This document shows positions 11,332 through 62,459 of a stretch of 64,000 bases of DNA, piece by piece. The notes under the pieces were generated by a model, which did not search any database, was not told the DNA's origin, and saw only the letters and a list, made by a program, of their open reading frames with translations. Positions within the stretch are counted from its first letter, which is position 1, and every line of letters begins with the position of its first letter. The position numbers were made by a program, and so were the translations under genes. The stretch comes from Limnochordia bacterium (GTDB taxonomy: Bacteria; Bacillota; Limnochordia; DTU080): assembly GCA_050951545.1 (NCBI GenBank), contig JBMNJG010000011.1:288001-352000 (forward strand), in the 5' to 3' direction.

Positions 11332-13254
11332 ATGTCGAAGACGCCTCCCGAGGATGGTGGGCGCTCCCTTCATATTGCTGAAAAGCTAAAGTATGTGCCG
11401 GACAGGCCAGGCGTCTATCTGATGCGCAACGATGCAGGTGATGTCATCTACGTTGGCAAGGCTGTGTCGCTGCGCCATCGAGTGCGCTCCTACTTTCAGG
11501 AGAGTCGCGATGCCGGACCAAAAGTAGAGGCCATGGTCAGACATGTCGCCGACTTCGGCTACATCGTCACTGACTCTGAGATCGAGGCCCTGATTCTCGA
11601 GGCCAACCTGATCAAAGAAGAAGAACCGTGGTACAATATTCGGCTCAAGGACGACAAGAGTTATCCTTACCTCAAGATCACCGAGGAGCCTTTTCCGCGG
11701 GTCTTGGTAGTGCGCCGTCCAGATAGGCAAGATCGGGTGTTTGGGCCCTACACAGATTCGCGAGCGGTCCGCCAGACTCTGCAGTTTCTGCGCAAACTCT
11801 TCCCGTTGCGCACGTGTAACATCGATCTATCCGGCGAACGCAAGCATCGACCTTGTCTTCTGTACCATATCGGGCGCTGTGGTGCTCCTTGTGCTGGTCT
11901 GCAGTCTGAGAAGGAGTACGCGGAGCTCATCACTGAGGTAGAGCTGTTCCTGGAGGGGCGGCACGATCGTCTGCTGCCTAGTTTGGAGAAGAAGATGAAC
12001 GAAGCGGCGGCGCGCCTTGAGTTTGAGCGAGCGGCTCGGCTGCGTGATCAGATTCAAGCGATGGAAAAGGTAATCGAGCGCCAGAAGATTGTAACCAGTG
12101 CCAATGTGGACCAGGATGTACTGGGGCTAGCTCTTGCCGACGCGCTTGCTTGTGTGCAGGTCTTTTTCGTGCGCGGCGGCAAGGTAGTGGGCAGTGAGCA
12201 CTTCTTCCTCGACGTGGGCGAGGAAGAAGACCAAAGTGAGATCTTGCGCTCCTTTGTACAACAATACTACAATCAGACTCGATTCGTCCCTCAGGAGGTG
12301 TTGCTGCCGCTAGTCATTGAGTCAGGTGACGTGGTCGAGGCCTGGTTGAGCCGAAAACGAGGCGGCCGCGTTCACTTGCGTAGGCCACAGCGGGGTGAGA
12401 AGCGGCGACTCGTAGAGATGGTAAGCGAGAACGCTCGCTTGGTGCTGGCCGCACGGCAGGAACGCGCCAGCGCGCGCCAACGCCACAACGAAGCGGGTCT
12501 GCGGCAGTTGAAAGAGGTCCTAAGGTTAGTTGACCAACCTCAGCGCATTGAAGCCTATGACGTCTCTAACTTCCAGGGCAGCGACACAGTAGCCTCCATG
12601 GTCGTACTCCAAGATGGCGAACCCGTTCCCGCGGATTATCGGCGCTTTCGTATCCGGGGCGTGCAGGGGCCCGACGACTTTGCAGCTATGCGCGAGGTCG
12701 TTCAGCGCCGCTTTCAGCGGGCCCTGCGTGAGCAGCAGGAGCTTGCGGAGTTGGAGCCTGCTGTACGCGAGGATGCTCGAGCGAAAGCCAAGTTCGCGCA
12801 CCTGCCTGACCTGGTGCTGATCGATGGCGGCCGAGGTCAGCTCAATGCCGCGGTCAGCGTTCTCCGTGAGCTCGGACTCGGTGATCTTCCGGTTGTGGGA
12901 CTAGCCGAGCGGCTAGAGGAGATCTACATGCAAGATCAGCCAGACCCACTTCGTCTTCGCGAAGACTCTCCGGGCATTCATCTACTGCAACGTGCCCGAG
13001 ACGAGGCCCATCGGTTTGCTCTGGGGTATCACCGGCAGTTGCGTGATAGACGAACGCAGGCATCTTCGTTGGATGCGATTGAGGGCGTCGGCCCCGCCCG
13101 AAAGAGGGCGCTGATCAAGCATTTTGGCTCAGTCAAGGGTGTTCGGGAGGCTAGTTTGGCGGAGTTGCAGGCGGTTCCGGGGCTTCCACAGGTTGTGGCT
13201 CAGCGTATCTATGAGCAGCTGGGGCGTAATGAACGTTTGAGGCCTGGACCTTAA
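11332..13254 (+). CDS. uvrC: Excinuclease ABC subunit C
   Basis: GIY-YIG (PGVYLM..IYVGKA), UVR, RNaseH-like (PDLVLIDGG, RDEAHRFA), C-terminal HhH. Confidence 0.98.
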   Translation: MSKTPPEDGGRSLHIAEKLKYVPDRPGVYLMRNDAGDVIYVGKAVSLRHRVRSYFQESRDAGPKVEAMVRHVADFGYIVTDSEIEALILEANLIKEEEPWYNIRLKDDKSYPYLKITEEPFPRVLVVRRPDRQDRVFGPYTDSRAVRQTLQFLRKLFPLRTCNIDLSGERKHRPCLLYHIGRCGAPCAGLQSEKEYAELITEVELFLEGRHDRLLPSLEKKMNEAAARLEFERAARLRDQIQAMEKVIERQKIVTSANVDQDVLGLALADALACVQVFFVRGGKVVGSEHFFLDVGEEEDQSEILRSFVQQYYNQTRFVPQEVLLPLVIESGDVVEAWLSRKRGGRVHLRRPQRGEKRRLVEMVSENARLVLAARQERASARQRHNEAGLRQLKEVLRLVDQPQRIEAYDVSNFQGSDTVASMVVLQDGEPVPADYRRFRIRGVQGPDDFAAMREVVQRRFQRALREQQELAELEPAVREDARAKAKFAHLPDLVLIDGGRGQLNAAVSVLRELGLGDLPVVGLAERLEEIYMQDQPDPLRLREDSPGIHLLQRARDEAHRFALGYHRQLRDRRTQASSLDAIEGVGPARKRALIKHFGSVKGVREASLAELQAVPGLPQVVAQRIYEQLGRNERLRPGP

Positions 13255-15919: not shown

Positions 15920-15929
15920 CCGTATGCGG

Positions 15930-16175
15930 CTAGCGCCTGGCGTTGGTGATAGTAGCCACCATGGACACCTCGCCAGTTCCGTCGCGGCATGCTCGCTCAA
16001 ATAGGCGCTGCAAAGCCGAGAAGATCTCTTCTGCCTCTCCCTGCATCTCGGTATTCACTGGACCCACCGCGAAGTTCACTGCGTTGTTGTCGTTGAGCTC
16101 CCCCAGGGAAGCGTTGATCACTTGGTCGGCGTTTTCCGCTTCGATAGGGTAGAGGGCGACCTGGGCTAGGAGCAT
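15930..16175 (-). CDS. YkoF/thiamine-binding (DUF77-like) small protein
   Basis: AQVALYP..VGPVNTEMQGE..IFSAL. ATG 16175 behind AGGAGGTG; 81 aa. Confidence 0.72.
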   Translation of the reverse strand: MLLAQVALYPIEAENADQVINASLGELNDNNAVNFAVGPVNTEMQGEAEEIFSALQRLFERACRDGTGEVSMVATITNARR

Positions 16176-16398
16176 GATGTGCACCTCCTGATATGCGTTG
16201 TTCCTCTCGTAGTGTGACCCAATGGTGATGATGTGCATGCAGGCCCCCTTTGCGAGTATGGTCTTGGCAGCCCAAGCTCTGAGCAACATTGATGGTCGCT
16301 CTTCCTTTGGTGAGCATGTGGAAGCGATGACGCACGCCGTGAAAAACGGAGCAAGGAAGGGCTTGGCAGCACTGGAAGAATCTAAACGTTAGGAAACG

Positions 16399-16428
16399 GC
16401 AGGAAGTCACTGAAAAGAGCGGGAATTA
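16399..16428 (+). promoter_or_regulatory. sigH-like promoter
   Basis: gcAGGAag-...-ggGAATta with an 18-bp AGGA-GAAT spacer. Confidence 0.45.
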
Positions 16429-16622
16429 ACATGTGAGCGTGATGGGCCAGATGCACGAGCTCTGCGGCCACTTTTTGTAGCGGCAAAAGATGACTAACGT
16501 AGTCAGTTAGCAGGGCTCACTCTGGCGTCGCATCGGCCAGCAATGATCAAGGATTTGCCGTAGGTTGCAGTAGGATCACGAGCAAGTAGACGTAGCCTAG
16601 TCGCAGCAAGTACCAAAGGGGG

Positions 16623-25203: not shown

Positions 25204-25248
25204 GATATGTGGCTGTGTCCAGCATCCGTGGGCAGAATGCAGGCGTGA

Positions 25249-25278
25249 TTGACAGGTCTTGGTGGCCAAAGGTAGAAT
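25249..25278 (+). promoter_or_regulatory. sigA-like promoter of ndoAI-ndoA
   Basis: TTGACA-18 bp-TAGAAT. Confidence 0.6.
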
Positions 25279-25331
25279 CAGGATAGATGCTTGTCCGAAA
25301 ACGTTGAAGTACGTGAAGGGGAGACAGGCAG

Positions 25332-25601
25332 GTGGCCAGGTCCCGACACATAGTTGTATCCTTGCCCGAAACACTGCTTCAGCAGCTGAAACAAGAGATT
25401 CAAGGCGCGAAAATGGGCCGAAATGAGTTCATCTGTGAGAGCGTTGAGTATTATATGGCAGAGCGCAAAAGGCGGACTGTACGCCGCCAGCTTGTTGCGG
25501 GATACCAGGAAATGGCAGCTTTGAACCTGGAACTCGCTGGGGAAGCGGAGACCGACTCCGCCTTGGGCGAGTACGAGCAGGCGCTGTCGGAGGGAGAATA
25601 G
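25332..25601 (+). CDS. ndoAI: Antitoxin EndoAI (CopG/RHH)
   Basis: [28 protein letters not shown]; directly upstream of mazF homolog. Confidence 0.85.
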
Positions 25602-25606
25602 GTGAT

Positions 25607-25957
25607 TTGGAGGTCCGGCGGGGGGACATTGTCTACGCCAACCTTAATCCGGTGATTGGCTCTGAGCAGGGCGGCACGCGTCCAGTTCTGGTGCTTCAAA
25701 ATGACATCGGAAATCGCCATAGTCCGACCACGATTGTTGCTGCCATCACGTCTCGCATTAAGAAGGCCAAGCTGCCCACTCATGTTGAGATCTGCGCTGA
25801 CGACTATGGCCTGGAGCGTGACTCAGTGATTCTGCTCGAGCAGTTGCGCACCATCGACAAGCGACGACTCAAGGAAAAGCTGGCTCATCTTGACGAAGAA
25901 AGTATGAACCGCGTGAACGAAGGTCTGATGATTAGCCTGGGGCTGACGCAGCTGTAG
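25607..25957 (+). CDS. ndoA: MazF/PemK family endoribonuclease EndoA
   Basis: [52 protein letters not shown]. Confidence 0.97.
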
Positions 25958-25989
25958 GTCATAGGTCGCTTCTGAACGTACGAGGTAAC

Positions 25990-26017
25990 GAGACTCGCAA
26001 GTTGGCGAGTCTCTTTT
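25990..26017 (+). terminator. Intrinsic terminator
   Basis: GAGACTCGC-aagttg-GCGAGTCTC-TTTT. Confidence 0.75.
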
Positions 26018-26064
26018 GTGGATCCTCGGCAAAGTGTGCCTGGGTGTGTCAGGAGGCGTGGGAT

Positions 26065-26790
26065 ATGCGTCCTTTGGTGCTGATGTCTTGCGGAATCGAC
26101 CCCGGTGGAGCGAAATTCGAGGGCAACCTAAGCTACGTGGAAGCAGTGGAGGGAGCTGGGGGGAGTGTGATGGTGGCACCTTCGCGGCTTTGCGAGGAGA
26201 CTCTGTCCGTTCTCTGCGGGCTGGCCGATAGCATTCTCTTGCCTGGTGGCAACGATATCGATCCGGCAAACTTCGGGGAAGAGCCTCGTCTAGCCAATGG
26301 TCGTGTTGAACCGGAGGTTGATGCGGTCGACATGTATCTGGCATGCTATGCCTTGCGGCACGGCAAGCCTGTTCTCGGTATCTGTCGTGGGTGCCAAGTC
26401 CTAAACGTGGCGGCTGGGGGGAGTCTGTTTCAAGATCTGCCCACCCAGTGGGAACGCGGGCAGCTGCTGCAGCACCGACAGCAAGCGCCACGCTGGCATG
26501 CCTCCCATGAGCTGCAGGTAGTTCCTGGAAGTCTGCTGGCTGGGATACTGGGCGACACGCGGCTGCGTGTAAACAGCTTCCACCATCAAGCCATTCGGAG
26601 CTGTGGTCGGGGTATGCGGGCGGTGGCTCAGGCTTCTGATGGAGTCGTAGAGGCCATCGAAGGTGAGGGCTCAGTGTTTGCCGTGGGTGTGCAGTGGCAT
26701 CCCGAAGGCATGCTTAGCCGTCATCCCCTGCAACAGCGCCTATTTGATGCATTCATCCAGGCAGGGCTCGCAGGTAAAGCTAGCGAATGA
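26065..26790 (+). CDS. Peptidase C26 / gamma-glutamyl-gamma-aminobutyrate hydrolase family (class I GATase fold)
   Basis: PGGNDIDP, LGICRGCQ, VNSFHHQ, VQWHPE triad. ATG 26065 after AGGAGG. Confidence 0.9.
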   Translation: MRPLVLMSCGIDPGGAKFEGNLSYVEAVEGAGGSVMVAPSRLCEETLSVLCGLADSILLPGGNDIDPANFGEEPRLANGRVEPEVDAVDMYLACYALRHGKPVLGICRGCQVLNVAAGGSLFQDLPTQWERGQLLQHRQQAPRWHASHELQVVPGSLLAGILGDTRLRVNSFHHQAIRSCGRGMRAVAQASDGVVEAIEGEGSVFAVGVQWHPEGMLSRHPLQQRLFDAFIQAGLAGKASE

Positions 26791-42185: not shown

Positions 42186-42797
42186 ATGAAAGAGCGAAAA
42201 AGTCTACCCTTACGTCAAGCCTGTGTTGAACGTACGACTCGCGAGACGCGGATTAGCCTGGAGCTGACCTTAGACGGCACTGGTGAAGCAACGGTCTCCA
42301 CTGGAATCGGTTTTCTCGACCATTGTCTCGAGGCGTTGGCCAAGCACAGCTTGTGCAATCTGCAGGTGAACTGTCAAGGCGACCTGCATGTGGACGGGCA
42401 TCACAGCGTAGAAGATATAGGGATCTGTCTTGGGCAAGCCCTGGCGCAAGCCTGCGGCGACAAGAGAGGGATTAGCCGCTTTGGCTTGGCCGTAGTGCCT
42501 ATGGACGAAGCTCTGGTAGAAGTCGCTCTCGATTTCAGCGGACGGGCTGGCCTTGGCTGGCACTCCTTCAACCTACCTCAGGCAATGGTTGGCAATTTCG
42601 ACGTCAGCCTGAGTAAGGAGTTCTTCCGTGCCCTGACGGCGAATGCTGGGATGACCGCGCATTTCACATGCCGTTGCGGCGAGAACTCTCACCACATTAT
42701 TGAAGCCACCTTCAAAGCCTTTGCTCGGGCGCTAAATGAAGCGTGTCGTCGTGATCCCGAGCTTAACGAGGTCCCCTCGACCAAGGGAGTGCTCTAG
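42186..42797 (+). CDS. hisB: Imidazoleglycerol-phosphate dehydratase
   Basis: RTTRET, GFLDH, DGHHSVED, NSHHIIEA, PSTKG. Confidence 0.96.
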   Translation: MKERKSLPLRQACVERTTRETRISLELTLDGTGEATVSTGIGFLDHCLEALAKHSLCNLQVNCQGDLHVDGHHSVEDIGICLGQALAQACGDKRGISRFGLAVVPMDEALVEVALDFSGRAGLGWHSFNLPQAMVGNFDVSLSKEFFRALTANAGMTAHFTCRCGENSHHIIEATFKAFARALNEACRRDPELNEVPSTKGVL

Positions 42798-54047: not shown

Positions 54048-55527
54048 TACACCGTTTGAGGTGATCGTGGGTCTCGAAGTTCACGCAGAACTGCTTACAG
54101 AGTCAAAGATATTCTGCGGTTGTTCGACGGCCTTTGGAGCCACGCCAAATACGCAGGTATGCCCTGTTTGCTTGGGCCTGCCAGGTACGTTACCAGTGCT
54201 CAACGAAAAGGCCGTTGAGTATGCCGCGAAAGCAGGTCTGGCTCTGGGGTGTGCCATTTCCTTGGTCAGCCGGTTCGATCGTAAGCAGTATTTCTATCCG
54301 GACCTTCCCAAGGCTTACCAGGTCTCGCAGTTTGATCGTCCCCTGTGTACAGACGGACGCGTGGAGTTCATGCTTGGCGGTGAGCTGCATGTAGTCAGGA
54401 TCATGCGGGTGCATATGGAAGAAGAGGCTGGTAAGTCTGTCCACTCCAGCGATAGCTTGCGCGACTCGCAGTACTCGCTTATCGACTACAATCGTGGTGG
54501 ACTAGCACTCATTGAGATCGTCACCCACCCCGACATGCATTCGGGTGACGAAGCCAGGCTCTTTATGGAGCGCCTGCACACTCTGCTGCGCTATATCGAG
54601 GTGTCAGATTGCAGGATGCAGGAAGGATCTCTGCGTTGCGATGCCAATGTCAACCTGAAGATCCTCTCCGGAGAGCAACCGATTCGTACCCCTATTGTGG
54701 AGATCAAGAATCTGAACTCCTTAAGAGCCTTGGAGCGAGCGATTGACTACGAGGCGCAGCGTCAGTACCATGAGTACCTTGATGGTTCGTGGCACCCCGG
54801 CATGCCATCTGGGAAGGTGACGGCGGGGTGGAATGATATCGAGAGTCGCACCTATGTGCAGCGTGAGAAAGAACACGCCGACGATTACCGTTACTTCCCT
54901 GACCCTGATATTCTACCGGTCGTAGTGCGCGAAGGGCAGGTAGAGGCGTGGCGCAGGCAGCTGCCCGAGCTGCCTGCAGCGCGCGAAGCTCGTTTCATAA
55001 GTGAGTATGACCTTCCCGCATATGATGCTGCAGTGCTTACAGCCTCTCGTCCCATCGCTGACTTCTTTGAGGCAGTGGTCGAGCAGTGTCATGACAGCAA
55101 GATGGTCAGTAACTGGATCATGGGCGAGTTGCTTCGGTTGCTCAAGGAGGCGGAAGACGACTCGGAGCATGCTCTTCTCTCGGCCCCCATCACCGCTGCA
55201 GGCTTGGCGCAGTTGCTGCTCATGGTCAAGGAGGGGCGCATTAACGCCAACAGCGGTAAAGAGGTCTTAGAGGTCATGTACCGCACTGGTCGTACGGCTG
55301 AGGACATTGTGCATGAACGTGGCCTAGAACAGATTAGCGACACCGATAAGCTAGATCGCTTAGTCGCAGAGGTCATCGACAAGCATCCTGAGGTGGTAAC
55401 TGAGATCAAGGGCGGGAAGGTAACGGCTATCGGCTTTCTCGTGGGTCAGGTGATGAAGGCGACCCGTGGTCAGGCCAATCCAAAATTGGTCAATCAGTCG
55501 TTGCGGGACCGACTGGGCGTGGATTAG
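54040..55527 (+). CDS. gatB: Asp/Glu-tRNA amidotransferase subunit B
   Basis: GLEVHAEL, YFYPDLPK, EEEAGK, LRCDANV, EIKNLNS, DYRYFPDPD, YqeY tail. Confidence 0.97.
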   Translation: MDDTPFEVIVGLEVHAELLTESKIFCGCSTAFGATPNTQVCPVCLGLPGTLPVLNEKAVEYAAKAGLALGCAISLVSRFDRKQYFYPDLPKAYQVSQFDRPLCTDGRVEFMLGGELHVVRIMRVHMEEEAGKSVHSSDSLRDSQYSLIDYNRGGLALIEIVTHPDMHSGDEARLFMERLHTLLRYIEVSDCRMQEGSLRCDANVNLKILSGEQPIRTPIVEIKNLNSLRALERAIDYEAQRQYHEYLDGSWHPGMPSGKVTAGWNDIESRTYVQREKEHADDYRYFPDPDILPVVVREGQVEAWRRQLPELPAAREARFISEYDLPAYDAAVLTASRPIADFFEAVVEQCHDSKMVSNWIMGELLRLLKEAEDDSEHALLSAPITAAGLAQLLLMVKEGRINANSGKEVLEVMYRTGRTAEDIVHERGLEQISDTDKLDRLVAEVIDKHPEVVTEIKGGKVTAIGFLVGQVMKATRGQANPKLVNQSLRDRLGVD

Positions 55528-55537
55528 GAGCTGGGGA

Positions 55538-56395
55538 ATGTATGGCGAGCTACTGCGGATAGGGCCCATTGCCCTCTATAAGTATGGGACCGCGTTGGCC
55601 GCGGCTTTTCTGGTTGGCGCATGTTTGGCGATGTCGGAGGCTCGGCGCCGCAGGCTGGACACGACAGTCATCGTTGAGCTAGTGGTGCATCTGATGGTGT
55701 TGGGCCTGATTAGCGGTAGAGTGGGCTACATCCTCCCAGACTTGGGTTTTTACCTAACCCATCCGAGTGAGTTTTTCAGGGTGTCGGCCGGTGGGCTGAG
55801 CTATGTTACCGCGTTTGTGGTGGCTGTTGGCTACACTCGTTTCTACGCGAAGCGTCGTGGGCTGCGTTTCTGGGAGCTGCTAGATATATTGGCTCCGGGT
55901 CTAGCCGCCGGGCTGATCATTGGGTCGCTAGGAGCCGTGGAGTGGCAGCCGGCGAAAGGCGCCGTGCATCTAGGCCCTATCTACTGGTCGCCACCGGTAC
56001 TGCTCTTTTTCACCATCGAATACGCTGGGTGTTGGTACATCATGGCGTCGCGACGTCGTCTGCCCGAAGGGCGACGCTTCTGCCAGATTGTGGCCGTGGA
56101 TGCTCTGGCTCGGATGCTGAGTAGTCTATGGGCCTGGATCCTCTATGAAGAGTTCTTGCCGCACGCTTTGTCGACGCTTGTGGGCGCGGTGTTTCTTGTT
56201 GGGGCGTTGGTGTTCGGGCAGATGCTCACCTTTCACCACAGCGGGTTACTGGAGAGTGCGGCGGCAGGTGAGATGACGCAGGCGCGGCGACCCCGCAAGC
56301 GGAGGCTGCCCGCGCGTCAGCGCGCAGTGCTTGCCGCCACTTGGCTAGGCTTTTATCTGCTTTTGGTCGGCTTGCTAGGTCGGACGCCGATGTAG
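55538..56395 (+). CDS. Lgt-like membrane protein (diverged prolipoprotein diacylglyceryl transferase)
   Basis: RIGPIALYKYG, GRVGYIL, GGLSY, LDILAPG match the Lgt N-half, but catalytic motifs are missing. Confidence 0.7.
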   Translation: MYGELLRIGPIALYKYGTALAAAFLVGACLAMSEARRRRLDTTVIVELVVHLMVLGLISGRVGYILPDLGFYLTHPSEFFRVSAGGLSYVTAFVVAVGYTRFYAKRRGLRFWELLDILAPGLAAGLIIGSLGAVEWQPAKGAVHLGPIYWSPPVLLFFTIEYAGCWYIMASRRRLPEGRRFCQIVAVDALARMLSSLWAWILYEEFLPHALSTLVGAVFLVGALVFGQMLTFHHSGLLESAAAGEMTQARRPRKRRLPARQRAVLAATWLGFYLLLVGLLGRTPM

Positions 56396-56402
56396 ATGCC
56401 AG

Positions 56403-56414
56403 CCCAGCTGCTTG
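56403..56414 (+). repeat. Left 12-bp direct repeat (candidate TSD/att core)
   Basis: CCCAGCTGCTTG, 7 bp after the lgt-like stop. Confidence 0.75.
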
Positions 56415-56462
56415 GGGGCCACGCAAGAAACTGCGGCAATCTTCCTGCGGTCGCTTGGGTTG

Positions 56463-56585
56463 GTGGTAAGAACCTAGCGATGCGGTCTTCGCGAAGCCCT
56501 TTTTGCTCATTTTGGTCGCCCGAAGGGCTTTTTTCACCGCCTAAGGGCACACTTTCCCGCCTTGATTTCGCTTCTGGGGCTACCG
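56463..56585 (+). repeat. Partial, diverged copy of the 406-bp unit
   Basis: GTGGTAA..AGCGATGCGGTCTTCGCGAAGCCCTTTTTGCTCATTTTG..CTTCTGGGGCTACCG; 472 bp upstream of the equivalent position in copy A. Confidence 0.9.
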
Positions 56586-56809
56586 TGGATACGCTTCACT
56601 TCGGCCCTACCAAAATGGCCTAGAAAGCTCACGGTAAGCTAGGCCGGTAAAACAGCGCGCTCACCAAAAACCTGCCATCGATCCAGGCCCCAAGCTGCGG
56701 GCCATGGATTCTGATGGACAACTCCTCCATGAGTTGCCCACAGACTCCACAGCCCCGACCAAAGACATCCATTGATTCATTTATTCGTTGTTTCTGGCTG
56801 TTATCTAGT

Positions 56810-57917
56810 TGGACACGCTCGCGAGACTGGCTCGGTAGTCGGACAGATGCACCCGGATTGGTACGTGAGTCGGGGCCAAGAATCCGACCGTGATGGCAAA
56901 ATAGCCGCCCCATCAACCCCTGGGCGCAATGTACGTGGTAAAAGTGCAGCGATGCGGCCTTCGCGAAGCCCTTTTTGCTCATTTTGATCGCCCGAAGGGC
57001 TCTTTTCCCCGCCAAGAGCACGCTTTCCCGTCTCATGGCCCTTCTGGAGCTACCGGGCAGTACATAACCGAACAGTGTCGATCGCCTTTTTCCACTCAGT
57101 CGATGGGGTCAGCTCCCCAGTGCGCGATCACAGCGGGCTCGCTCGGGTCCCTCTGCGAACCGACCCTTCGGTGTTAACCCGGTGGGTGTGTTTCGAAAAG
57201 GGTGGACGGACACCATGCACACCCTCGCGAGACTCGCTCGGTAGTCGGACAGATGCACCCGCATTGGTACGTGAGTCGGGGTCAAGAATCCGACCGTGAT
57301 GGCAAAAGAGCCGCCTCATTAACCCCCGGGGCCAATGTACGTGGTAAAAGTGCAGCGATGCGGCCTTCGCGAAGCCCTTTTGGTTGGTTTGGACGGCCTG
57401 AAGGGCTCTTTCCCCCCAAAAAGAGCGCGCTTTCCCGCCCTGGCGGCCCTTCTGGGGCTACCACGCAGCACATAACCGAACGGTAGTGACTGCCTTTTTC
57501 CACTCAGTCGATGGGGTCAGCTCCCCAGTGCGCGATCACAGCGGCTCGCTCGGGTCCCTCTGCGAACCGACCCTTCAGTGTTAACCCGGTCGGTGCATTT
57601 GGAAGAGAATGGACGGATCAATGGACACGCTCGCGAGACTGGCTCGGTAGTCGGACAGATGCACCCGGATTGGTACGTGAGTCGGGGCCAAGAATCCGAC
57701 CGTGATGGCAAAATAGCCGCCCCATCAACCCCTGGGCGCAATGTACGTGGTAAAAGTGCAGCGATGCGGCCTTCGCGAAGCCCTTTTTGCTCATTTTGAT
57801 CGCCCGAAGGGCTCTTTTCCCCGCAAAGAGCACGCTTTCCGGCCTTGATGCCTCTTCTGGAGCTGCCGGACGGTACATAACCCGACGGTGGTGGTACCTT
57901 TTTCCCACTCAGTCGAT
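56810..57917 (+). repeat. Tandem 406-bp non-coding repeat, ~2.7 copies (starts 56810, 57216, 57622)
   Basis: Marker GCGATGCGG at 56949, 57355, 57761. 56810-57012 is identical to 57622-57824. Confidence 0.97.
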
Positions 57918-58006
57918 GATCCGAGGGGGAAATGCTGTCGACTCCCGGTGGCCACTGGGTCTTAGCTGGCAATGCGCGCGCAGTCAGCGAAGAACTATTG
58001 TCTGTG

Positions 58007-58035
58007 GAAGGATTCTGGAGCCGAACATAGAATTC
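58007..58035 (+). promoter_or_regulatory. sigH-like promoter of the nuclease gene
   Basis: gaAGGAttc-...-ataGAATtc with a 17-bp AGGA-GAAT spacer. Confidence 0.5.
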
Positions 58036-58049
58036 AGCATTGAATCAAT

Positions 58050-58063
58050 CGAACACATGGTCG
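58050..58063 (+). promoter_or_regulatory. Putative LexA box
   Basis: CGAACACATGGTCG; one mismatch to CGAAC-RNRY-GTTCG, between the promoter and the RBS. Confidence 0.45.
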
Positions 58064-58081
58064 TTATGTGAGGTGAGGCCC

Positions 58082-59143
58082 TTGTACTCTCTCTATGTAG
58101 ATGAGGTGAACGTGCCGCTCTCACTGCTACTGACTCGCGAGCTAAAAGCCAGCGAGAAGATCGTTTGGATGGCCTTAACGATGGATGATCAGCTGGAGGA
58201 AAGTTTCCTTTTCTCGCCCAGCCGCCTGGGGCGGCGCACGGGTATGTCCCGGCCTACCGTTCGCAGGGCGACAGCCAAGTTAACCACCGAGGGCTGGTTT
58301 GCTCCACCGGCTAGGCGGGGACCTAGCCAGACCGCGGCACAGAAGCCATCCCCGGATAGGGTCTCCGTACCTGTGGAGTTAGTCATGGCTACTGAAATCC
58401 ATGCACAGGCCAAATTGGTTTATGCCCTACTGCTGTCCAAACCTACGGACCCACCTCGCAAAAGGCAGTTCACATACGCTGAGTTAGCCGGCCGGATGAG
58501 TCTGAGCCCCCAAACCATCAAACACGCGGCTCGTCAGTTGGCCAAGCATGGTTGGCTGGAGATGGAGCAGGCGCACAAGCGGGCACCGATTCGCTTCACT
58601 CTCCACAACCCGGTTGATAAGCGAAATGTAAAAGAAATACTAGACGTGCAGGATGAGCTCCACCGCGCTACGCACCTCGGAGAGGCTCTCATGCAGGCTA
58701 TCTTCTTGGCGCTTGTCGATTGCCTTGACTTCGACGACGGAATGCGCCCAGGTTTCATGAGGAACCCAGCAACTGGCAAGCGTCTGGAGGTCGATCTCTT
58801 CTATTACTTGCACAATACGGCCATGGAGTTCAATGGGGCGCAACACTACCGCGTCACGGAGCGGAATTCGGCTGAGCAGGTCCATAAGCAGCAATGCCGT
58901 GACCAGACCAAACAGCAGATCTGCGCTAAGAAGAAGATCAAGCTGATCGTGATTCAGGCTCACGAGCTGTCCTGCAAGATCATCAAGCGCAAGATTGACA
59001 GGCGGCTGCCATTCCGGCGCGGTCAGGACTTCAACCGGAAGCTCATCAACTATCTCGAGTGTAGATGCGGTGAATACCAGCAAAGAATAGATGAGCGCGG
59101 CTGGGGAACCGCCAGCCAATCTGAGAGAAAGCAAGACGAGTAG
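58082..59143 (+). CDS. Tandem winged-HTH + Vsr/DUF559-like endonuclease
   Basis: Two internally similar wHTH units; C-terminal GE..RPGFMRNPATGKRLEVD..AMEFNGAQHY..RDQTK..IKLIVI. TTG 58082 follows GAGGTG. Confidence 0.78.
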   Translation: MYSLYVDEVNVPLSLLLTRELKASEKIVWMALTMDDQLEESFLFSPSRLGRRTGMSRPTVRRATAKLTTEGWFAPPARRGPSQTAAQKPSPDRVSVPVELVMATEIHAQAKLVYALLLSKPTDPPRKRQFTYAELAGRMSLSPQTIKHAARQLAKHGWLEMEQAHKRAPIRFTLHNPVDKRNVKEILDVQDELHRATHLGEALMQAIFLALVDCLDFDDGMRPGFMRNPATGKRLEVDLFYYLHNTAMEFNGAQHYRVTERNSAEQVHKQQCRDQTKQQICAKKKIKLIVIQAHELSCKIIKRKIDRRLPFRRGQDFNRKLINYLECRCGEYQQRIDERGWGTASQSERKQDE

Positions 59144-59457: not shown

Positions 59458-59486
59458 TTGACAGCCGGGAGGTTGAACTGTATGAT
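59458..59486 (+). promoter_or_regulatory. sigA promoter of valS leader
   Basis: TTGACA-17 bp-TATGAT. Confidence 0.8.
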
Positions 59487-59511
59487 GTGGAAAACTGGCT
59501 TATTGCACGGT

Positions 59512-59745
59512 GATGAAGGGGAGGAGTAACGGTTCAGCCCCGAAAAAAGAGAGGCTGCCCTTGGCTGGGAGGTAGCCCGGACGGACCGTGAATGTCGCCC
59601 TGGAGCAGCTTATCCCAAAATAGGCCGGGTGCGCCCGTTATCGCGTGTAGCAAGCGCCTTTGGTGCCCCCTTATGTGGTGTCAAAGGAACTAAGGTGGTA
59701 CCGCGCGAGTCTACGCGTCCTTATGGAGGACGCGTTTTTGTTTTT
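59512..59745 (+). ncRNA. T-box riboswitch (Val) upstream of valS
   Basis: AGTA, AGAGAG and GCTG stem-I motifs; GAA followed by GTC (59594-59596); T-box AAGGTGGTACCGCG (59692-59705); terminator ACGCGTCCT-tatgg-AGGACGCGT-TTTT. Confidence 0.93.
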
Positions 59746-59783: not shown

Positions 59784-62459
59784 ATGGCGCAACGCGTCTT
59801 TTCATCTACTGCAGCTGTGGAGCTACCCAAGGTGTATGATCCAAAGGCAGTGGAGAGCAAATGGTACAAGAGGTGGGAGGAGCGGGGCTACTTCCATGCC
59901 CAGGCTCGTCCCGGACGACCCAAGTTCAGCATGGTCATTCCGCCACCCAATGTGACGGGTTCATTGCACATGGGACATGCACTCAACAACACGTTGCAGG
60001 ATGTCTTACTGCGTTGGCACCGGATGATGGGCCATGACGCCCTTTGGGTTCCGGGCACGGATCACGCTGGAATTGCCACACAGATCAAAGTGGAGGAGCA
60101 CCTGCGCAAAGAAGAGGGTCTCACCCGTCACGATGTGGGGCGTGAGCGCTTCCTGGAGCGCGTCTGGGCCTGGAAAGAGCGATATCACGCAAACATTGTG
60201 GGCCAGCTGAAGACACTGGGTTGTGCGGTGGACTGGCAGCGAGAGCGCTTTACAATGGATGAGGGATGCTCCAAGGCGGTACGTGAGGTCTTCGTTCGGC
60301 TCTATGAGAGGGGCCTCATCTACCAGGGTAGCTACATCGTGAACTGGTGTCCGCACTGCCATACAACACTCTCTGACGTGGAAGTGGAGCATGAGGAAGT
60401 AGAGGGTCACCTGTGGTACATTCGCTATCCTATGGCTTCAGGTGAGGGGTATGCGATGGTTGCCACAACTCGTCCTGAGACCATGCTCGGCGATACGGCC
60501 ATAGCCGTGCATCCTGATGATGAACGCTATGCCGCTCAGGTGGGGCAGAGCGTTGTCTTGCCCCTGATGAATCGCGAGATACCGCTCATCGCAGATAGTT
60601 TCGTAGATCCGGCGTTCGGTACCGGCATGGTCAAGGTGACGCCAGCCCATGATCCGAATGACTGCGAGATGGGCGAACGCCACGGACTGGCCCGCATTCA
60701 GGTGATTGACGAAGATGGTTGTATGAACTCTGAAGCCGGGGCCTATGCTGGTCTGGAGCGCTATGCGTGTCGGGATAGCGTTGTTGCTGACCTGGAGAAG
60801 CAAGGCTTTCTGGTCAAGGTGGAGGATCATCTGCACGCAGTGGGTCACTGCTATCGCTGTGGCACGGTGGTAGAACCCCTGATCTCTAAGCAGTGGTTTG
60901 TCCGTATGAAGCCCTTGGCAGGTCCTGCTATCGAGGCGGTGCAGCGGGGCGACATCCGTTTTATCCCTGAGCGCTTTGCGAAGCAGTACCTGCACTGGAT
61001 GGAGAACACCCGAGACTGGTGTATCTCGCGCCAGTTGTGGTGGGGTCATCGCATTCCAGTTTGGACCTGTCAGGCTTGTGGAGAGCAGTTTGCTTCGAAA
61101 CACGACCCGGAGAAGTGCCCCGTATGTGCCGAAGCGCGACTAGAACAAGACCCGGATGTGCTCGATACCTGGTTTAGCTCTGCTCTCTGGCCTTTCTCAA
61201 CATTGGGGTGGCCGGACCAGACGGAAGACCTTGCCGATTTTTATCCTACTTCGGTCTTGGTTACGGCGTATGACATCATCACTTTCTGGGTGGCTCGCAT
61301 GATCTTTTCGGGTCTGGAGCACACAGGGCAAAAGCCCTTCCACGAGGTGCTGGTGCATGGGCTTGTGCGTGACGCATTGGGCCGAAAAATGAGTAAGTCG
61401 CTGGGCAATGGCGTAGATCCGCTCGAGGTGATCGACGAGAACGGCGCGGACGCGTTGCGCTTCACACTGCTTACGGGTGTGGCTCCGGGTAACGACACGC
61501 GCTATCATCCAGAGCGTACCGAAGCCAATCGGAACTATGCCAACAAGATCTGGAATGCCTCTCGCTTTGCTCTGATGAATATGCAGGATTTTCAACCAAC
61601 AGAGCAAGCCTTGACCGAGCTATCGCTCGAGCTTCCTGATCGCTGGATTCTGGCTCGCCTGAATTCGACAGTACGCGAAGTGAGCCGCCATCTGTCACGC
61701 TACGATTTCGGTGAGGGTGCACGGGCTCTGTACGACTTCATGTGGAGCGAAGTATGCGACTGGTATATCGAAGCTGTGAAACCGAGGCTGTACGGGCAGT
61801 ACGGTGCGGAGAGTCGCCGGACAGCTCAGAGCGTGCTTTGGCAGGTGCTTTTGCGCACTTTGGAGCTACTACACCCCTTCATGCCGTTTATCACGGAAGA
61901 GATATGGCAACACCTTCCTCATGAAGGCGAATCGATCATGCTAGCATCGTGGCCTGTCGAGGTTCCAGAGTGGGAAGATGGCGACGCGGTGGAGCAGATG
62001 GGGGTGGTGATGGACGTAGTGCGAGCCATCCGCAACATGCGCTCTGAGAAGACGGTGTCTCCCGAGAAGGCCATTCAGGCCATTCTCCATGCCGATGCGG
62101 GGAAGACCGCTATCTTGTCCGAAAACCGGGAGACAGTAATGCATTTGGCGCATCTGTCGGAGTTGGCGCTTGAGGGAGTGGATCATGCTAAGCCGGACCA
62201 AGCATTGGCGGCGGTGGCCGCGGGAGTTGAGGTATTCTTACCTCTAGCGGGCTTGGTTGACATTGACGAGGAGTTAGCTCGGCTACAGAAGGAGCTAGCA
62301 GAGGTTGATGAGCATCTGGCGCGTACTCGCGCTCGTCTCAGCAATCCGGGCTTTGTGAACAAGGCCCCTGCGCAGGTGGTGGAGGGTGCACGCCGCCAGC
62401 TAAGCGACTTGGAGGAGCGAAGAGCGAAACTGGCTGCAACGCTTGCCGATCTGCAGTGA
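59784..62459 (+). CDS. valS: Valine--tRNA ligase
   Basis: [39 protein letters not shown]-terminal coiled coil. Confidence 0.99.

What the first reader, a model, noticed from the sequence alone, without database searches (positions are those of the whole stretch)
56810..57917. 406-bp tandem non-coding repeat with conserved hairpins and palindromes
The period of 406 is not a multiple of 3 and overlapping ORFs break between copies, so it is probably non-coding. Each unit has stems GTCGG/CCGAC, GCCCTT/AAGGGC, an overlapping GCTCTT/AAGAGC, TGGGG/CCCCA and GGGTC/GACCC (the last two absent from truncated copy C), plus palindromes CTCGCGAG and CTTCGCGAAG sharing TCGCGA. Copy B differs heavily inside the GCCCTT..AAGGGC loop while the stem is kept. 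Inference: an array of structured RNAs, or of binding sites for the adjacent HTH protein. The units are far longer than CRISPR repeats or iterons.
Basis: partly seen in the sequence, partly recalled or inferred. Interest (0 to 1): 0.8.

Follow-up and report, generated by a model that had tools for sequence, protein, structure and literature searches.

The report
Lineage-specific non-coding 406-bp tandem repeat
A stretch of DNA that codes for no protein is repeated head-to-tail about three times between two ordinary genes of a Limnochordia bacterium and recurs in its relatives, but no test here showed that it folds into an RNA or binds the neighbouring protein.

Summary
The repeat is real: 56810-57918, period 406, 2.7 copies.

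It is non-coding:
- Synonymous to non-synonymous changes run about 1:3 in all six frames.
- 0 of 10 local ORFs match Pfam.
- Relatives' predicted ORFs read the same DNA in shifting frames.

It is not an assembly artefact. Of 18 ORFs from other metagenome contigs, 13 cross a unit junction and 5 span more than one unit. One shares the array's right-hand boundary.

The "conserved hairpins" reading is not supported:
- Folding z-scores lie between -1.1 and +1.0.
- 0 of 94 plus-strand pairs are compensatory.
- Changes inferred in relatives break the stems as often as in slid controls.
- Rfam has no match.

The palindromes are statistically unusual but are broken in 4 of 16 and 6 of 16 relatives. The constrained part is a roughly 40-nt block in the core.

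The neighbouring protein has two winged helices and a Vsr/DUF2726-like nuclease fold.

Function is unresolved. My best guess is a recombination-maintained array of a plus-strand cis-acting core module.

The parts
56463..56587 (+). Solo 'core' copy, equal to unit positions 126-249, starting 68 nt after the lgt-like stop codon. It holds the hairpin AGCCCTT...AAGGGCT (56495-56529) followed by a run of six T (56529-34).
   Evidence: blastn gives 87% identity over 110 nt. nhmmer gives E = 1.4e-27. Sequence read. The flanks show no similarity to the unit.
56810..57215 (+). Copy A, a full 406-nt unit.
57216..57621 (+). Copy B, a full unit. It is 87.9% identical to A, and its first half is the variant that most relatives match best.
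57622..57918 (+). Copy C, truncated at unit position 297. It is identical to A over positions 1-203 and 77-87% identical beyond that.
   Evidence: The right-hand boundary is shared with relative P0012.
56930..57058 (+). Core module inside copy A. The equivalents are 57336-57466 in B and 57742-57870 in C.
   Evidence: nhmmer with a four-copy core profile.
56930..56969 (+). Most conserved block, unit positions 121-160. It is identical in A, B and C (B: 57336-57375; C: 57742-57781) and contains the CTTCGCGAAG palindrome.
   Evidence: 40/40 identical among A, B and C. Amino-acid identity of relatives' ORFs over these columns is 0.86-0.93, against 0.39-0.66 in the variable segments. The 140-155 arms are unchanged in 64 of 64 cells.
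58082..59143 (+). Neighbouring gene for a protein with two winged-helix domains and a C-terminal Vsr/DUF559/DUF2726-like nuclease-fold domain. The ORF is open from 58040; the likely start is TTG 58082, after GAGGTGAGG. Any link to the repeat is inferred only.
   Evidence: Pfam HTH_36, MarR and others. Only 8 homologue clusters, the best 98% identical and named as a Limnochordia MAG protein. Invariant residues D238, E249, N251, G252, Q254, H255, D274 and K277. AF2 pLDDT 82.6. DUF2726 matched in 3 of 9 members. BFVD fold matches to phage homing, Vsr and DUF2726 endonucleases. ESM Atlas.

Best explanation
This is a lineage-specific, non-coding tandem DNA repeat, a long-period VNTR-like array found in Limnochordia.

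Each unit of about 406 nt has two modules. One is a core of about 125 nt (unit positions 126-249). The other is a more variable spacer of about 280 nt.

The array is generated and partly homogenised by unequal recombination and gene conversion. The core is a separable element that also stands alone directly behind the lgt-like gene.

My committed mechanism is that the core acts in cis on the plus strand. That is the strand of every flanking gene, and the core would lie within a transcript running from lgt toward the winged-helix/nuclease gene. An invariant block of about 40 nt is followed by a hairpin (AGCCCUU...AAGGGCU) and a U-run, which together would form an RNA 3'-end or attenuation module. 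The solo copy, with six U, would serve as the lgt terminator. The array would be a stack of weaker copies, possibly released as small sibling RNAs by processing rather than from promoters of their own.

Shown: the repeat exists, it is non-coding, it is modular, it shows a mosaic pattern, it occurs in tandem in relatives, and conservation is uneven and peaks in the core.

Inferred: transcription, the strand, and the 3'-end or attenuator role.
For: Existence and layout.

Non-coding:
- 7-9 synonymous against 24-26 non-synonymous differences between A and B in each of the six frames.
- 0 of 10 ORFs in 56226-58071 match Pfam.
- ORFs of relatives switch frame within a unit (P0010, P0016, P0020, P0022). 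By my reading, they read unit positions 300-406 in all three minus-strand frames.

Recombination signature:
- A equals C over positions 1-203.
- A equals B over columns 300-362 (62/62).
- C is 77% identical to both in columns 251-299.
- The last copy is truncated.

Lineage conservation of the tandem arrangement:
- 13 of 18 relatives' ORFs cross a unit junction in a single tblastn match, and 5 of 18 span more than 406 nt.
- These ORFs were listed with at least 11 different contig lengths.
- P0012 continues into the unique right flank (57919-57990), so the array end is orthologous.

Modularity and constraint:
- The solo copy keeps exactly positions 126-249 at 87% identity, while its flanks are unalignable.
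- Relatives keep columns 121-160 at 0.86-0.93 amino-acid identity and 181-190 at 0.85. The hairpin loop (161-180) is at 0.59-0.66, and the values are 0.55-0.57 over columns 191-210, after the U-run.

Plus-strand hints:
- All long flanking ORFs are on the plus strand.
- The hairpin plus U-run exists only on the plus strand.
- The four-copy core consensus fold has 0 broken cells and 7 one-sided wobble-compatible changes on the plus strand (covariation term -1.06). The minus strand has 6 pairs with a broken cell (+0.38).
- No sigma-70-type promoter lies between lgt and the winged-helix gene.
Against: - The folding energy of the unit and of the cores is no better than that of shuffles. The unit scores z = +0.12 on the plus strand and +0.96 on the minus strand. 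The cores range from -1.13 to +0.70.
- The terminator scan does not flag the core hairpin, whose loop is about 21 nt.
- The U-run is weak in the array copies (UCUUUU, UCUUUCC). By back-reading the GEMS codons, I infer it to be weaker still in most relatives.
- The solo copy's homology runs about 55 nt past the U-run.
- Changes inferred in relatives leave the AGCCCTT/AAGGGCT stem mostly unchanged (90 of 97 cells). Where it changes, pairing is broken 6 times and kept once.
- For the whole-unit fold, 47 of 154 changed cells (31%) keep pairing, inside the 22-43% range of the slid controls.
- The shuffling control on the core is uninformative with four sequences.
- Relatives may be close enough that much of the conservation is simple descent. 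The unique flank in P0012 is about as conserved as the repeat: 80% identity in an arbitrary frame.
- No transcription data exist.
Confidence: 0.35

Rival explanations
1. Neutral or selfish macro-satellite. An intergenic segment was duplicated in tandem and drifts and homogenises by unequal crossing-over, with no function for the host. The apparent constraint on the core reflects gene conversion and close relatedness.
For: - Mosaic identity, a truncated and more diverged edge copy, and neutral substitution pattern in all frames.
- No RNA-structure, promoter, terminator or Rfam signal.
- Array edges differ among relatives. The left edge in P0017 lies near unit position 260, and P0021 replaces the junction segment.
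- Columns 300-362 are identical in A and B but only 0.54-0.70 conserved in relatives, which is concerted evolution.
Against: - Conservation is strongly uneven, and the same block (121-160) is the best kept in ORFs read in three different frames.
- The solo copy keeps only the core, at 87% identity, with no similarity in its flanks.
- Neighbouring copies 12% diverged persist, and the array end is shared with a relative. Tandem repeats would be expected to collapse; this expectation rests on general knowledge and was not tested.
Confidence: 0.25
2. Array of DNA sites for the adjacent two-winged-helix/Vsr-like nuclease-fold protein. The invariant block of about 40 bp, which includes GCGA-N8-TCGC and the TCGCGA palindromes, is its long recognition site. 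The array would act as an operator, a decoy or a recombination-target region.
For: - The gene starts 164 nt downstream of copy C.
- The protein has two winged-helix domains and a conserved nuclease-like domain.
- The 10-nt palindrome is far above chance, with 5 seen against 0.09 expected.
- The 16-mer at 140-155 is unchanged in 64 of 64 cells. Invariance of both the arms and the loop fits sequence-specific recognition better than a 4-bp RNA stem.
- A Vsr-fold homing endonuclease is known to footprint about 60 bp (PMC3239194, abstract read).
- The right flank toward this gene is syntenic in P0012.
Against:
- The palindromes are broken in 4 of 16 (CTCGCGAG) and 6 of 16 (CTTCGCGAAG) relatives' segments.
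- The unit is about ten times longer than any needed site and has no internal sub-repeats.
- PDB fold matches to the iteron-binding protein RepE54 are weak (TMq 0.30, E 0.06-0.1).
Confidence: 0.2
3. Array of independently transcribed sibling small-RNA genes, each unit with its own promoter and terminator, in the manner of NsiR1 or LhrC.
For: - Tandem, slightly diverged copies with more diverged edge copies resemble the NsiR1 array: 12 tandem copies, the central ones identical and the peripheral ones diverged (PMC9045159, passages read).
- The pattern of a conserved block, then a hairpin with a variable loop, then a U-run resembles an sRNA seed plus terminator.
Against: - 0 sigma-70-type promoters were found in 56200-58300, while the same scan finds the valS leader promoter at 11 of 12 matches.
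- The solo copy's homology starts only at unit position 126, so it shares no upstream promoter region.
- No canonical terminator was found.
- The unit is 406 nt, against about 60-nt RNAs in the known arrays.
- Rfam has no match.
Confidence: 0.1
4. Protein-coding repeat or its pseudogene on the minus strand, where long ORFs exist (151 aa here, up to 193 aa in relatives).
For: Minus-strand ORFs of 96-193 aa in the window and in relatives. In P0014 one ORF runs through more than one unit with a period of about 137 aa.
Against: - The period is 406, not a multiple of three.
- Synonymous to non-synonymous changes run about 1:3 in every frame.
- Successive units in P0014, and different relatives, read the same DNA in different frames.
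- 0 of 10 ORFs match Pfam.
- Searches of 5.8 billion and 1.84 billion proteins found only short unnamed ORFs.
- The composition is rich in R, P, S, G, C and W (my reading).
Confidence: 0.03
5. Assembly artefact: a single unit was wrongly expanded into several.
For: The window seems to be from a metagenome-assembled genome (closest protein named as a Limnochordia MAG). A and C are identical over 203 nt, which short reads cannot span unambiguously.
Against: - 13 of 18 ORFs from other contigs cross a unit junction and 5 span more than one unit.
- Copies A and B differ at 49 of 404 aligned positions, and C has its own substitutions. An artefactual expansion would not create these.
Confidence: 0.03

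Closest known systems
Bacterial VNTR / minisatellite-type intergenic tandem repeats (for example the MIRU type; recalled, not retrieved)
   Same: Head-to-tail non-coding copies in an intergenic region. The mosaic pattern points to gene conversion, the edge copy is truncated, and array boundaries vary between relatives.
   Different: The unit is 406-414 nt; from recall, the periods of such repeats are usually tens of nucleotides to about 150 nt. The unit is modular, with a core that also occurs alone. Only one locus is seen in 64 kb.
Sibling sRNA tandem arrays, such as NsiR1 of Nostoc (PMC9045159, passages read)
   Same: Tandem, slightly divergent copies upstream of a gene, with peripheral copies more diverged. 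A conserved block precedes a hairpin plus U-run.
   Different: NsiR1 is about 60 nt, with a promoter for each copy. Here the period is 406 nt, no sigma-70-type promoter is found in any unit, the hairpin is not a canonical terminator, and there is no expression evidence.
Iteron or operator arrays next to winged-helix initiators, such as RepE54 with its iteron (PDB 1rep/7sgc, listed)
   Same: Direct repeats lie next to a gene for a protein with two winged-helix domains. Pfam HTH_36 and DnaD_N give weak hits, and BFVD lists a 'Replication initiator protein'.
   Different: Iterons are about 20 bp (recalled). This unit is 20 times longer and has no internal sub-repeats. The fold match to RepE54 is weak. 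The protein carries a nuclease-fold domain instead. GC skew does not change across the window.
Vsr-fold (EDxHD) homing endonuclease I-Bth0305I and phage DUF559/DUF2726 nucleases. This comparison concerns the neighbouring protein only.
   Same: An N-terminal DNA-binding part with a C-terminal Vsr-like nuclease fold. I-Bth0305I footprints about 60 bp (PMC3239194 abstract). VSR, DUF559 and DUF2726 are listed together in one row of the PD-(D/E)XK survey's table (PMC3424549 passages).
   Different: The gene is not inside an intron or intein. The motif here is E-x-N-G-x-Q-H rather than EDxHD. phmmer found no PDB match for the C-terminal part. Activity and target are unknown.

Membership tests
Any Rfam RNA family (release 15) | Covariance-model score at or above the family's gathering threshold | tested here: not met
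   The whole window at gathering threshold gives only the T-box at 59504-59725. A permissive scan of 56200-58200 gives 10 matches, all at 17.3 bits or less against thresholds of 36-90.
Structured non-coding RNA (generic) | Folding energy below that of shuffles, and compensatory base changes | tested here: not met
   z-scores are +0.12 and +0.96 for the unit and -1.13 to +0.70 for the cores. 0 of 94 plus-strand and 2 of 104 minus-strand pairs are compensatory. In relatives, 31% of changed cells keep pairing, against 22-43% in slid controls. Power is low: there are 3-4 true DNA copies, and the relatives are only inferred from protein.
Sibling sRNA gene array (NsiR1/LhrC type) | Each unit carries its own promoter | tested here: not met
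   0 sigma-70-type sites in 56200-58300. The scan does find TTGACA-17-TATGAT before the valS T-box. Promoters of alternative sigma factors could not be tested.
Sibling sRNA gene array (NsiR1/LhrC type) | Each unit ends in a Rho-independent terminator | tested here: inconclusive
   A 7-8-bp GC-rich stem is followed by a U-run, but the loop is about 21 nt and the array copies have UCUUUU or UCUUUCC. The scan does not flag it. Only the solo copy has six U.
Iteron or operator array | Short (about 17-22 bp) direct repeats, several per region | tested here: not met
   The period is 406. blastn with word size 7 finds no sub-repeats inside the unit. Each of the two palindromes occurs once per unit.
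CRISPR array | Short repeats of 23-50 bp alternating with unique spacers | tested here: not met
   The whole 406-nt unit is repeated, with no unique spacers.
Protein-coding tandem repeat | A period divisible by three, one conserved frame, and purifying selection | tested here: not met
   The period is 406. Synonymous to non-synonymous changes run about 1:3 in all frames. Frames shift among relatives. No Pfam match.
Dispersed intergenic repeat / MITE-like element | Many dispersed copies with terminal inverted repeats or target duplications | tested here: inconclusive
   The 64 kb holds only this locus plus the solo core. P0026 shows unit positions 38-127 fused to an unrelated TPR-like C-terminus in another contig, which hints at other loci. 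The rest of the genome is not available.
VNTR-like non-coding tandem repeat | Head-to-tail non-coding copies, a recombination mosaic, and variation of arrays between relatives | tested here: met
Vsr/DUF559/DUF2726 PD-(D/E)XK-type nuclease fold (neighbouring protein) | Fold and family-profile match of the C-terminal domain | tested here: inconclusive
   DUF2726 matches in 3 of 9 family members, best E = 7.9e-4; the window protein itself gives no hit. BFVD Foldseek gives 60 matches at E <= 0.001, including proteins named DUF2726, DUF559, VSR and homing endonucleases. PDB Foldseek gives 0 matches at E <= 0.001, and phmmer against the PDB finds none. Catalysis was not tested.

The most novel reading that the evidence does not exclude
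The array and the neighbouring gene form one unit of a new kind. A rare two-winged-helix/Vsr-fold nuclease recognises the invariant asymmetric block of about 40 bp present once per 406-bp unit. The tandem array is its cis partner, for example a self-targeted recombination or copy-number-switching locus, or a protective decoy or landing pad. This would explain the mosaic gene-conversion pattern, the differing array edges in relatives, and the persistence of a long non-coding repeat in a compact genome.
Probability: 0.1. Interest if true: 0.75.

Novelty: new variant of a known kind. Interest (0 to 1): 0.4.

Why it matters
Long-period non-coding tandem repeats that persist across related bacteria are uncommon in compact genomes. 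Limnochordia are almost unstudied at the level of RNA and regulation.

If the core proves to be an RNA 3'-end or sRNA module, or the target of the adjacent nuclease-like protein, it would define a new cis-element family. It would also provide a tractable pairing of a repeat with a protein.

If it is neutral, it is still a useful strain-typing (VNTR) locus and a caution for MAG assembly.

At present it is a well-documented lead, not a demonstrated system.

Tried and rejected
1. Pattern scan of genome contigs with the palindrome plus hairpin arms. It returned 4 loci in unrelated phyla that match only the 15-21-nt pattern itself. I treated these as chance.

2. blastn of the whole locus against plasmids and phages found no match. 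tblastn of the winged-helix protein against plasmids found none.

Co-occurrence is therefore unchecked.

4. Coding hypotheses are rejected.

5. Diversity-generating retroelement idea. The A/B differences are not adenine-specific by my reading, and no reverse-transcriptase gene was seen among the flanking ORFs whose families I checked. Rejected.

6. Replication origin. GC skew stays positive over the whole window. Rejected.

7. I looked by eye for alternative-sigma promoters, parS, LexA, CtsR and Spo0A boxes and found nothing convincing. This rests on recalled consensus sequences, not on a test.

8. PADLOC gave only weak HTH-level hits.

9. PDB Foldseek of the whole protein model found only generic winged-helix matches.

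10. Three long proteins (P0027-P0029; 644-1314 aa, 25-35% identity, 5-6 stretches) were dropped unfetched as probable low-complexity matches.

11. Complex prediction was not used, because it does not model protein-DNA binding.

12. Literature. 'Limnochordia' plus 'tandem repeat' found 0 papers. 'large tandem repeats' plus 'intergenic' plus 'bacterial genomes' found 7 papers, none relevant by title or abstract. These two searches are not an exhaustive novelty check.
Full report
**Observation**

Tandem Repeats Finder reports one array at 56810-57918 with period 406, 2.7 copies, 86% matches and score 1753. blastn and alignment resolve three copies:
- A is 56810-57215.
- B is 57216-57621, 87.9% identical to A.
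- C is 57622-57918, 93.6% identical to A and cut off at unit position 297.

This includes the absence of TGGGG/CCCCA and GGGTC/GACCC from C. It also includes the clustering of A/B differences in the loop between GCCCTT and AAGGGC, where 8 of 25 positions differ and both arms are unchanged.

It corresponds exactly to unit positions 126-249, with 87% identity and nhmmer E = 1.4e-27. It begins 68 nt after the stop of the lgt-like ORF (55466-56395). The window holds no other copy.

The locus lies between gatA, gatB and an Lgt-like gene on one side. On the other side are a gene for a winged-helix protein (58082-59143), a T-box leader (59504-59725) and valS. At 1686 nt, 56396-58081 is the longest non-coding gap in the window, and its G+C content equals that of coding DNA.

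**It does not code for protein**

- Between A and B, every one of the six frames shows 7-9 synonymous against 24-26 non-synonymous codon differences. That is the neutral ratio. Each frame also contains stops, except one frame of B.
- None of 10 ORFs of 73-151 aa in the region matches Pfam at E <= 0.1.
- Searching three of these ORFs against the large protein sets found only short unnamed ORFs.
- Those ORFs read the same DNA in different frames. P0010, P0016, P0020 and P0022 switch frame within a unit. By my reading, the segment 300-406 appears in all three minus-strand frames among P0013, P0015, P0016 and the window's own ORFs.
- In P0014 one ORF runs through two units, yet it reads that segment in two different frames.

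**It is real and older than this strain**

I mapped 18 relatives' ORFs (P0009-P0026) back to the window by tblastn. Three long, low-identity hits were dropped.
- 13 of the 18 cross a unit junction in one match.
- 5 of the 18 (P0013, P0015, P0021, P0023, P0025) cover 414-492 nt, which is more than one unit.
- The ORFs were listed with at least 11 different contig lengths. Several share the same listed longest-contig length: 170233 for P0010, P0012 and P0020, and 16709 for P0015 and P0016.
- P0012 continues from copy C into the unique flank 57919-57990, so the right end of the array is orthologous in that relative.
- P0011 shares the left junction.
- P0017 and P0021 have different edges or a replaced junction segment.
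- P0026 joins unit positions 38-127 to an unrelated TPR-like C-terminus, which hints at fragments at other loci.

The closest homologue of the neighbouring protein (98% identity) is named as a protein of a Limnochordia MAG.

I could not fetch the relatives' DNA. The single genome-contig scan gave only four chance hits.

**Anatomy**

- A and C are identical over positions 1-203.
- A and B are identical over columns 121-160 and 300-362.
- C is only 77% identical to either in columns 251-299.

This mosaic, with a diverged and truncated edge copy, is the signature of unequal crossing-over and gene conversion.

Across relatives, conservation is uneven. I measured it as amino-acid identity of their ORFs per ten alignment columns, which is an indirect proxy.

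| Alignment columns | Amino-acid identity |
|---|---|
| 121-160 | 0.86-0.93 |
| 11-30, 71-100, 181-190 | 0.81-0.87 |
| 161-180 (hairpin loop) | 0.59-0.66 |
| 191-210 | 0.55-0.57 |
| 361-408 plus 1-10 (with indels) | 0.39-0.62 |

Together with the solo copy, this defines a core of about 125 nt (positions 126-249) and a spacer of about 280 nt.

**Tests of the structured-RNA reading**

- The folding energy of unit A is indistinguishable from shuffles on both strands (z = +0.12 and +0.96). The eight core folds range from -1.13 to +0.70.
- RNAalifold on A, B and C gives 0 of 94 compensatory pairs on the plus strand and 2 of 104 on the minus strand. The covariation terms are unfavourable.
- On the four cores, the plus-strand consensus has 29 pairs, no broken cell and 7 one-sided wobble-compatible changes. 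The minus-strand consensus has 6 pairs with a broken cell. This is a weak hint for the plus strand. The shuffle control is uninformative with four sequences.
- To bring in the relatives, I inferred their nucleotide changes by parsimony from the amino acids. This gave 24 segments and 671 inferred substitutions. Synonymous changes are invisible, and frameshifted stretches may be misread.
- For the whole-unit fold, 47 of 154 changed cells (31%) keep pairing. Six slid controls give 22-43%.

| Stem | Kept (including compensated) | Broken |
|---|---|---|
| GTCGG(60)/CCGAC | 4 | 3 |
| AGCCCTT/AAGGGCT | 1 | 6 |
| GCTCTT/AAGAGC | 0 | 10 |
| TGGGG/CCCCA | 3 | 3 |
| GGGTC/GACCC | 5 | 12 |

- Short stems in the unit are only marginally more frequent than in random pieces of the window (top 5-7%).
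- Rfam gives nothing.

The named hairpins are therefore present but not shown to be more than sequence conservation.

**Palindromes and the neighbouring protein**

CTTCGCGAAG is far above chance, with 5 seen against 0.09 expected. CTCGCGAG is only mildly so, with 5 seen against 2.2 expected. One extra copy of CTCGCGAG lies at 58134, inside the neighbouring ORF.

In relatives, CTCGCGAG is intact in 12 of 16 covering segments and CTTCGCGAAG in 10 of 16. The adjacent 16-mer (positions 140-155, GCGA-N8-TCGC) is unchanged in 64 of 64 cells. The constrained feature is therefore the block, not the palindromes.

The neighbouring protein:
- It is 353 aa from the TTG at 58082, which follows GAGGTGAGG.
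- It has two winged-helix domains (HTH_36, MarR, GntR and others).
- It belongs to a rare family of only 8 clusters.
- Residues D238, E249, N251, G252, Q254, H255, D274 and K277 are invariant.
- It folds with pLDDT 82.6.
- Its C-terminal domain matches DUF2726 in 3 of 9 family members.
- It resembles small phage proteins, some labelled DUF2726 or DUF559.
- It gives 60 BFVD fold matches at E <= 0.001, including proteins named homing, Vsr, DUF2726 and restriction endonucleases.
- PDB searches give only weak winged-helix matches.

The PD-(D/E)XK survey lists VSR, DUF559 and DUF2726 together in one table row and notes mobile-element neighbourhoods for DUF2726 (PMC3424549, passages). The Vsr-fold homing endonuclease I-Bth0305I footprints about 60 bp (PMC3239194, abstract). 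A long asymmetric DNA site for this protein is therefore conceivable but untested.

**Transcription signals**

No sigma-70-type promoter and no canonical terminator is found in the units. The same scan finds TTGACA-17-TATGAT (11 of 12) at 59458-59486 and the T-box terminator at 59713-59735. The method therefore works on this organism.

On the plus strand, the core carries a stem of 7-8 bp (AGCCCUU/AAGGGCU) with a loop of about 21 nt, followed by a U-run. The run is six U in the solo copy behind lgt, but only UCUUUU or UCUUUCC in the array copies.

**Interpretation**

Shown: this is a real, non-coding, modular tandem repeat, conserved within the lineage and shaped by recombination, with a constrained core.

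Inferred, at 0.35 confidence: the core acts in cis on the plus-strand transcript as a 3'-end or attenuation module. The solo copy would be the lgt terminator, and the array would be a stack of weaker copies ahead of the nuclease-like gene.

Rivals:
- a neutral macro-satellite (0.25);
- a site array for the neighbouring protein (0.2);
- independently transcribed sibling sRNAs (0.1);
- a coding sequence (0.03);
- an assembly artefact (0.03).

**Comparison with known systems**

- It meets the loose definition of a VNTR-like non-coding tandem repeat, but its unit is unusually long and modular.
- It fails the tested defining features of sRNA gene arrays (a promoter per unit), iteron arrays, CRISPR and coding repeats, and it matches no Rfam family.
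- Two full-text searches found no description of it. That is not an exhaustive check.

**Limits**

- All evidence from relatives is indirect, because I had protein translations and not DNA.
- The copy number in this genome is unverified.
- Co-occurrence with the winged-helix gene is unchecked.
- No expression or binding data exist.

Noticed in passing
59458-59735: A T-box leader (Rfam RF00230, 101 bits, 59504-59725) lies upstream of valS (59784-62459). A near-consensus promoter, TTGACA-17-TATGAT, sits at 59458-59486, and a 10-bp-stem terminator at 59713-59735.
   Followed up: partly
58134-58141: An extra copy of the palindrome CTCGCGAG lies 52 nt inside the winged-helix/nuclease ORF. Another is at 42238, and an extra CTTCGCGAAG is at 12955. 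I did not test whether these are related to the repeat's sites.
   Followed up: no
55466-56395: The Lgt-like ORF matches Pfam LGT only over residues 29-165 of 309. It ends in an Arg/Pro-rich segment and a hydrophobic tail. If it starts at GTG 55466 it overlaps gatB by 62 nt. Its true start and C-terminal half are unclear.
   Followed up: no
58082-59143: The two-winged-helix plus Vsr/DUF2726-like protein belongs to a very small family: 8 clusters at E <= 0.001 in 5.8 billion proteins. Its C-terminal domain otherwise looks phage-borne (SPbeta-like and Bacillus jumbo phages). It may be a domesticated or selfish nuclease gene sitting in a housekeeping region.
   Followed up: partly
relative ORF P0026 (no window coordinates; maps to unit positions 38-127): In another contig a fragment of the unit is read in frame into an unrelated TPR-like C-terminus. 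The break falls at the left edge of the core module. This hints that pieces of the repeat occur at other loci and that module boundaries are recombination points.
   Followed up: partly
1-64000: GC skew is positive in 31 of 32 two-kb windows (-0.001 in 56001-58000), and most long ORFs are on the plus strand. The window therefore lies within one replichore, with strong gene-strand bias.
   Followed up: no
15920-16622 and 25204-26001: Two other long gaps (703 and 798 nt) lie between the long plus-strand ORFs (a 222-aa minus-strand ORF at 25823-26491 overlaps the second gap), with G+C near the coding level. I did not examine them. Rfam found nothing there at gathering threshold.
   Followed up: no
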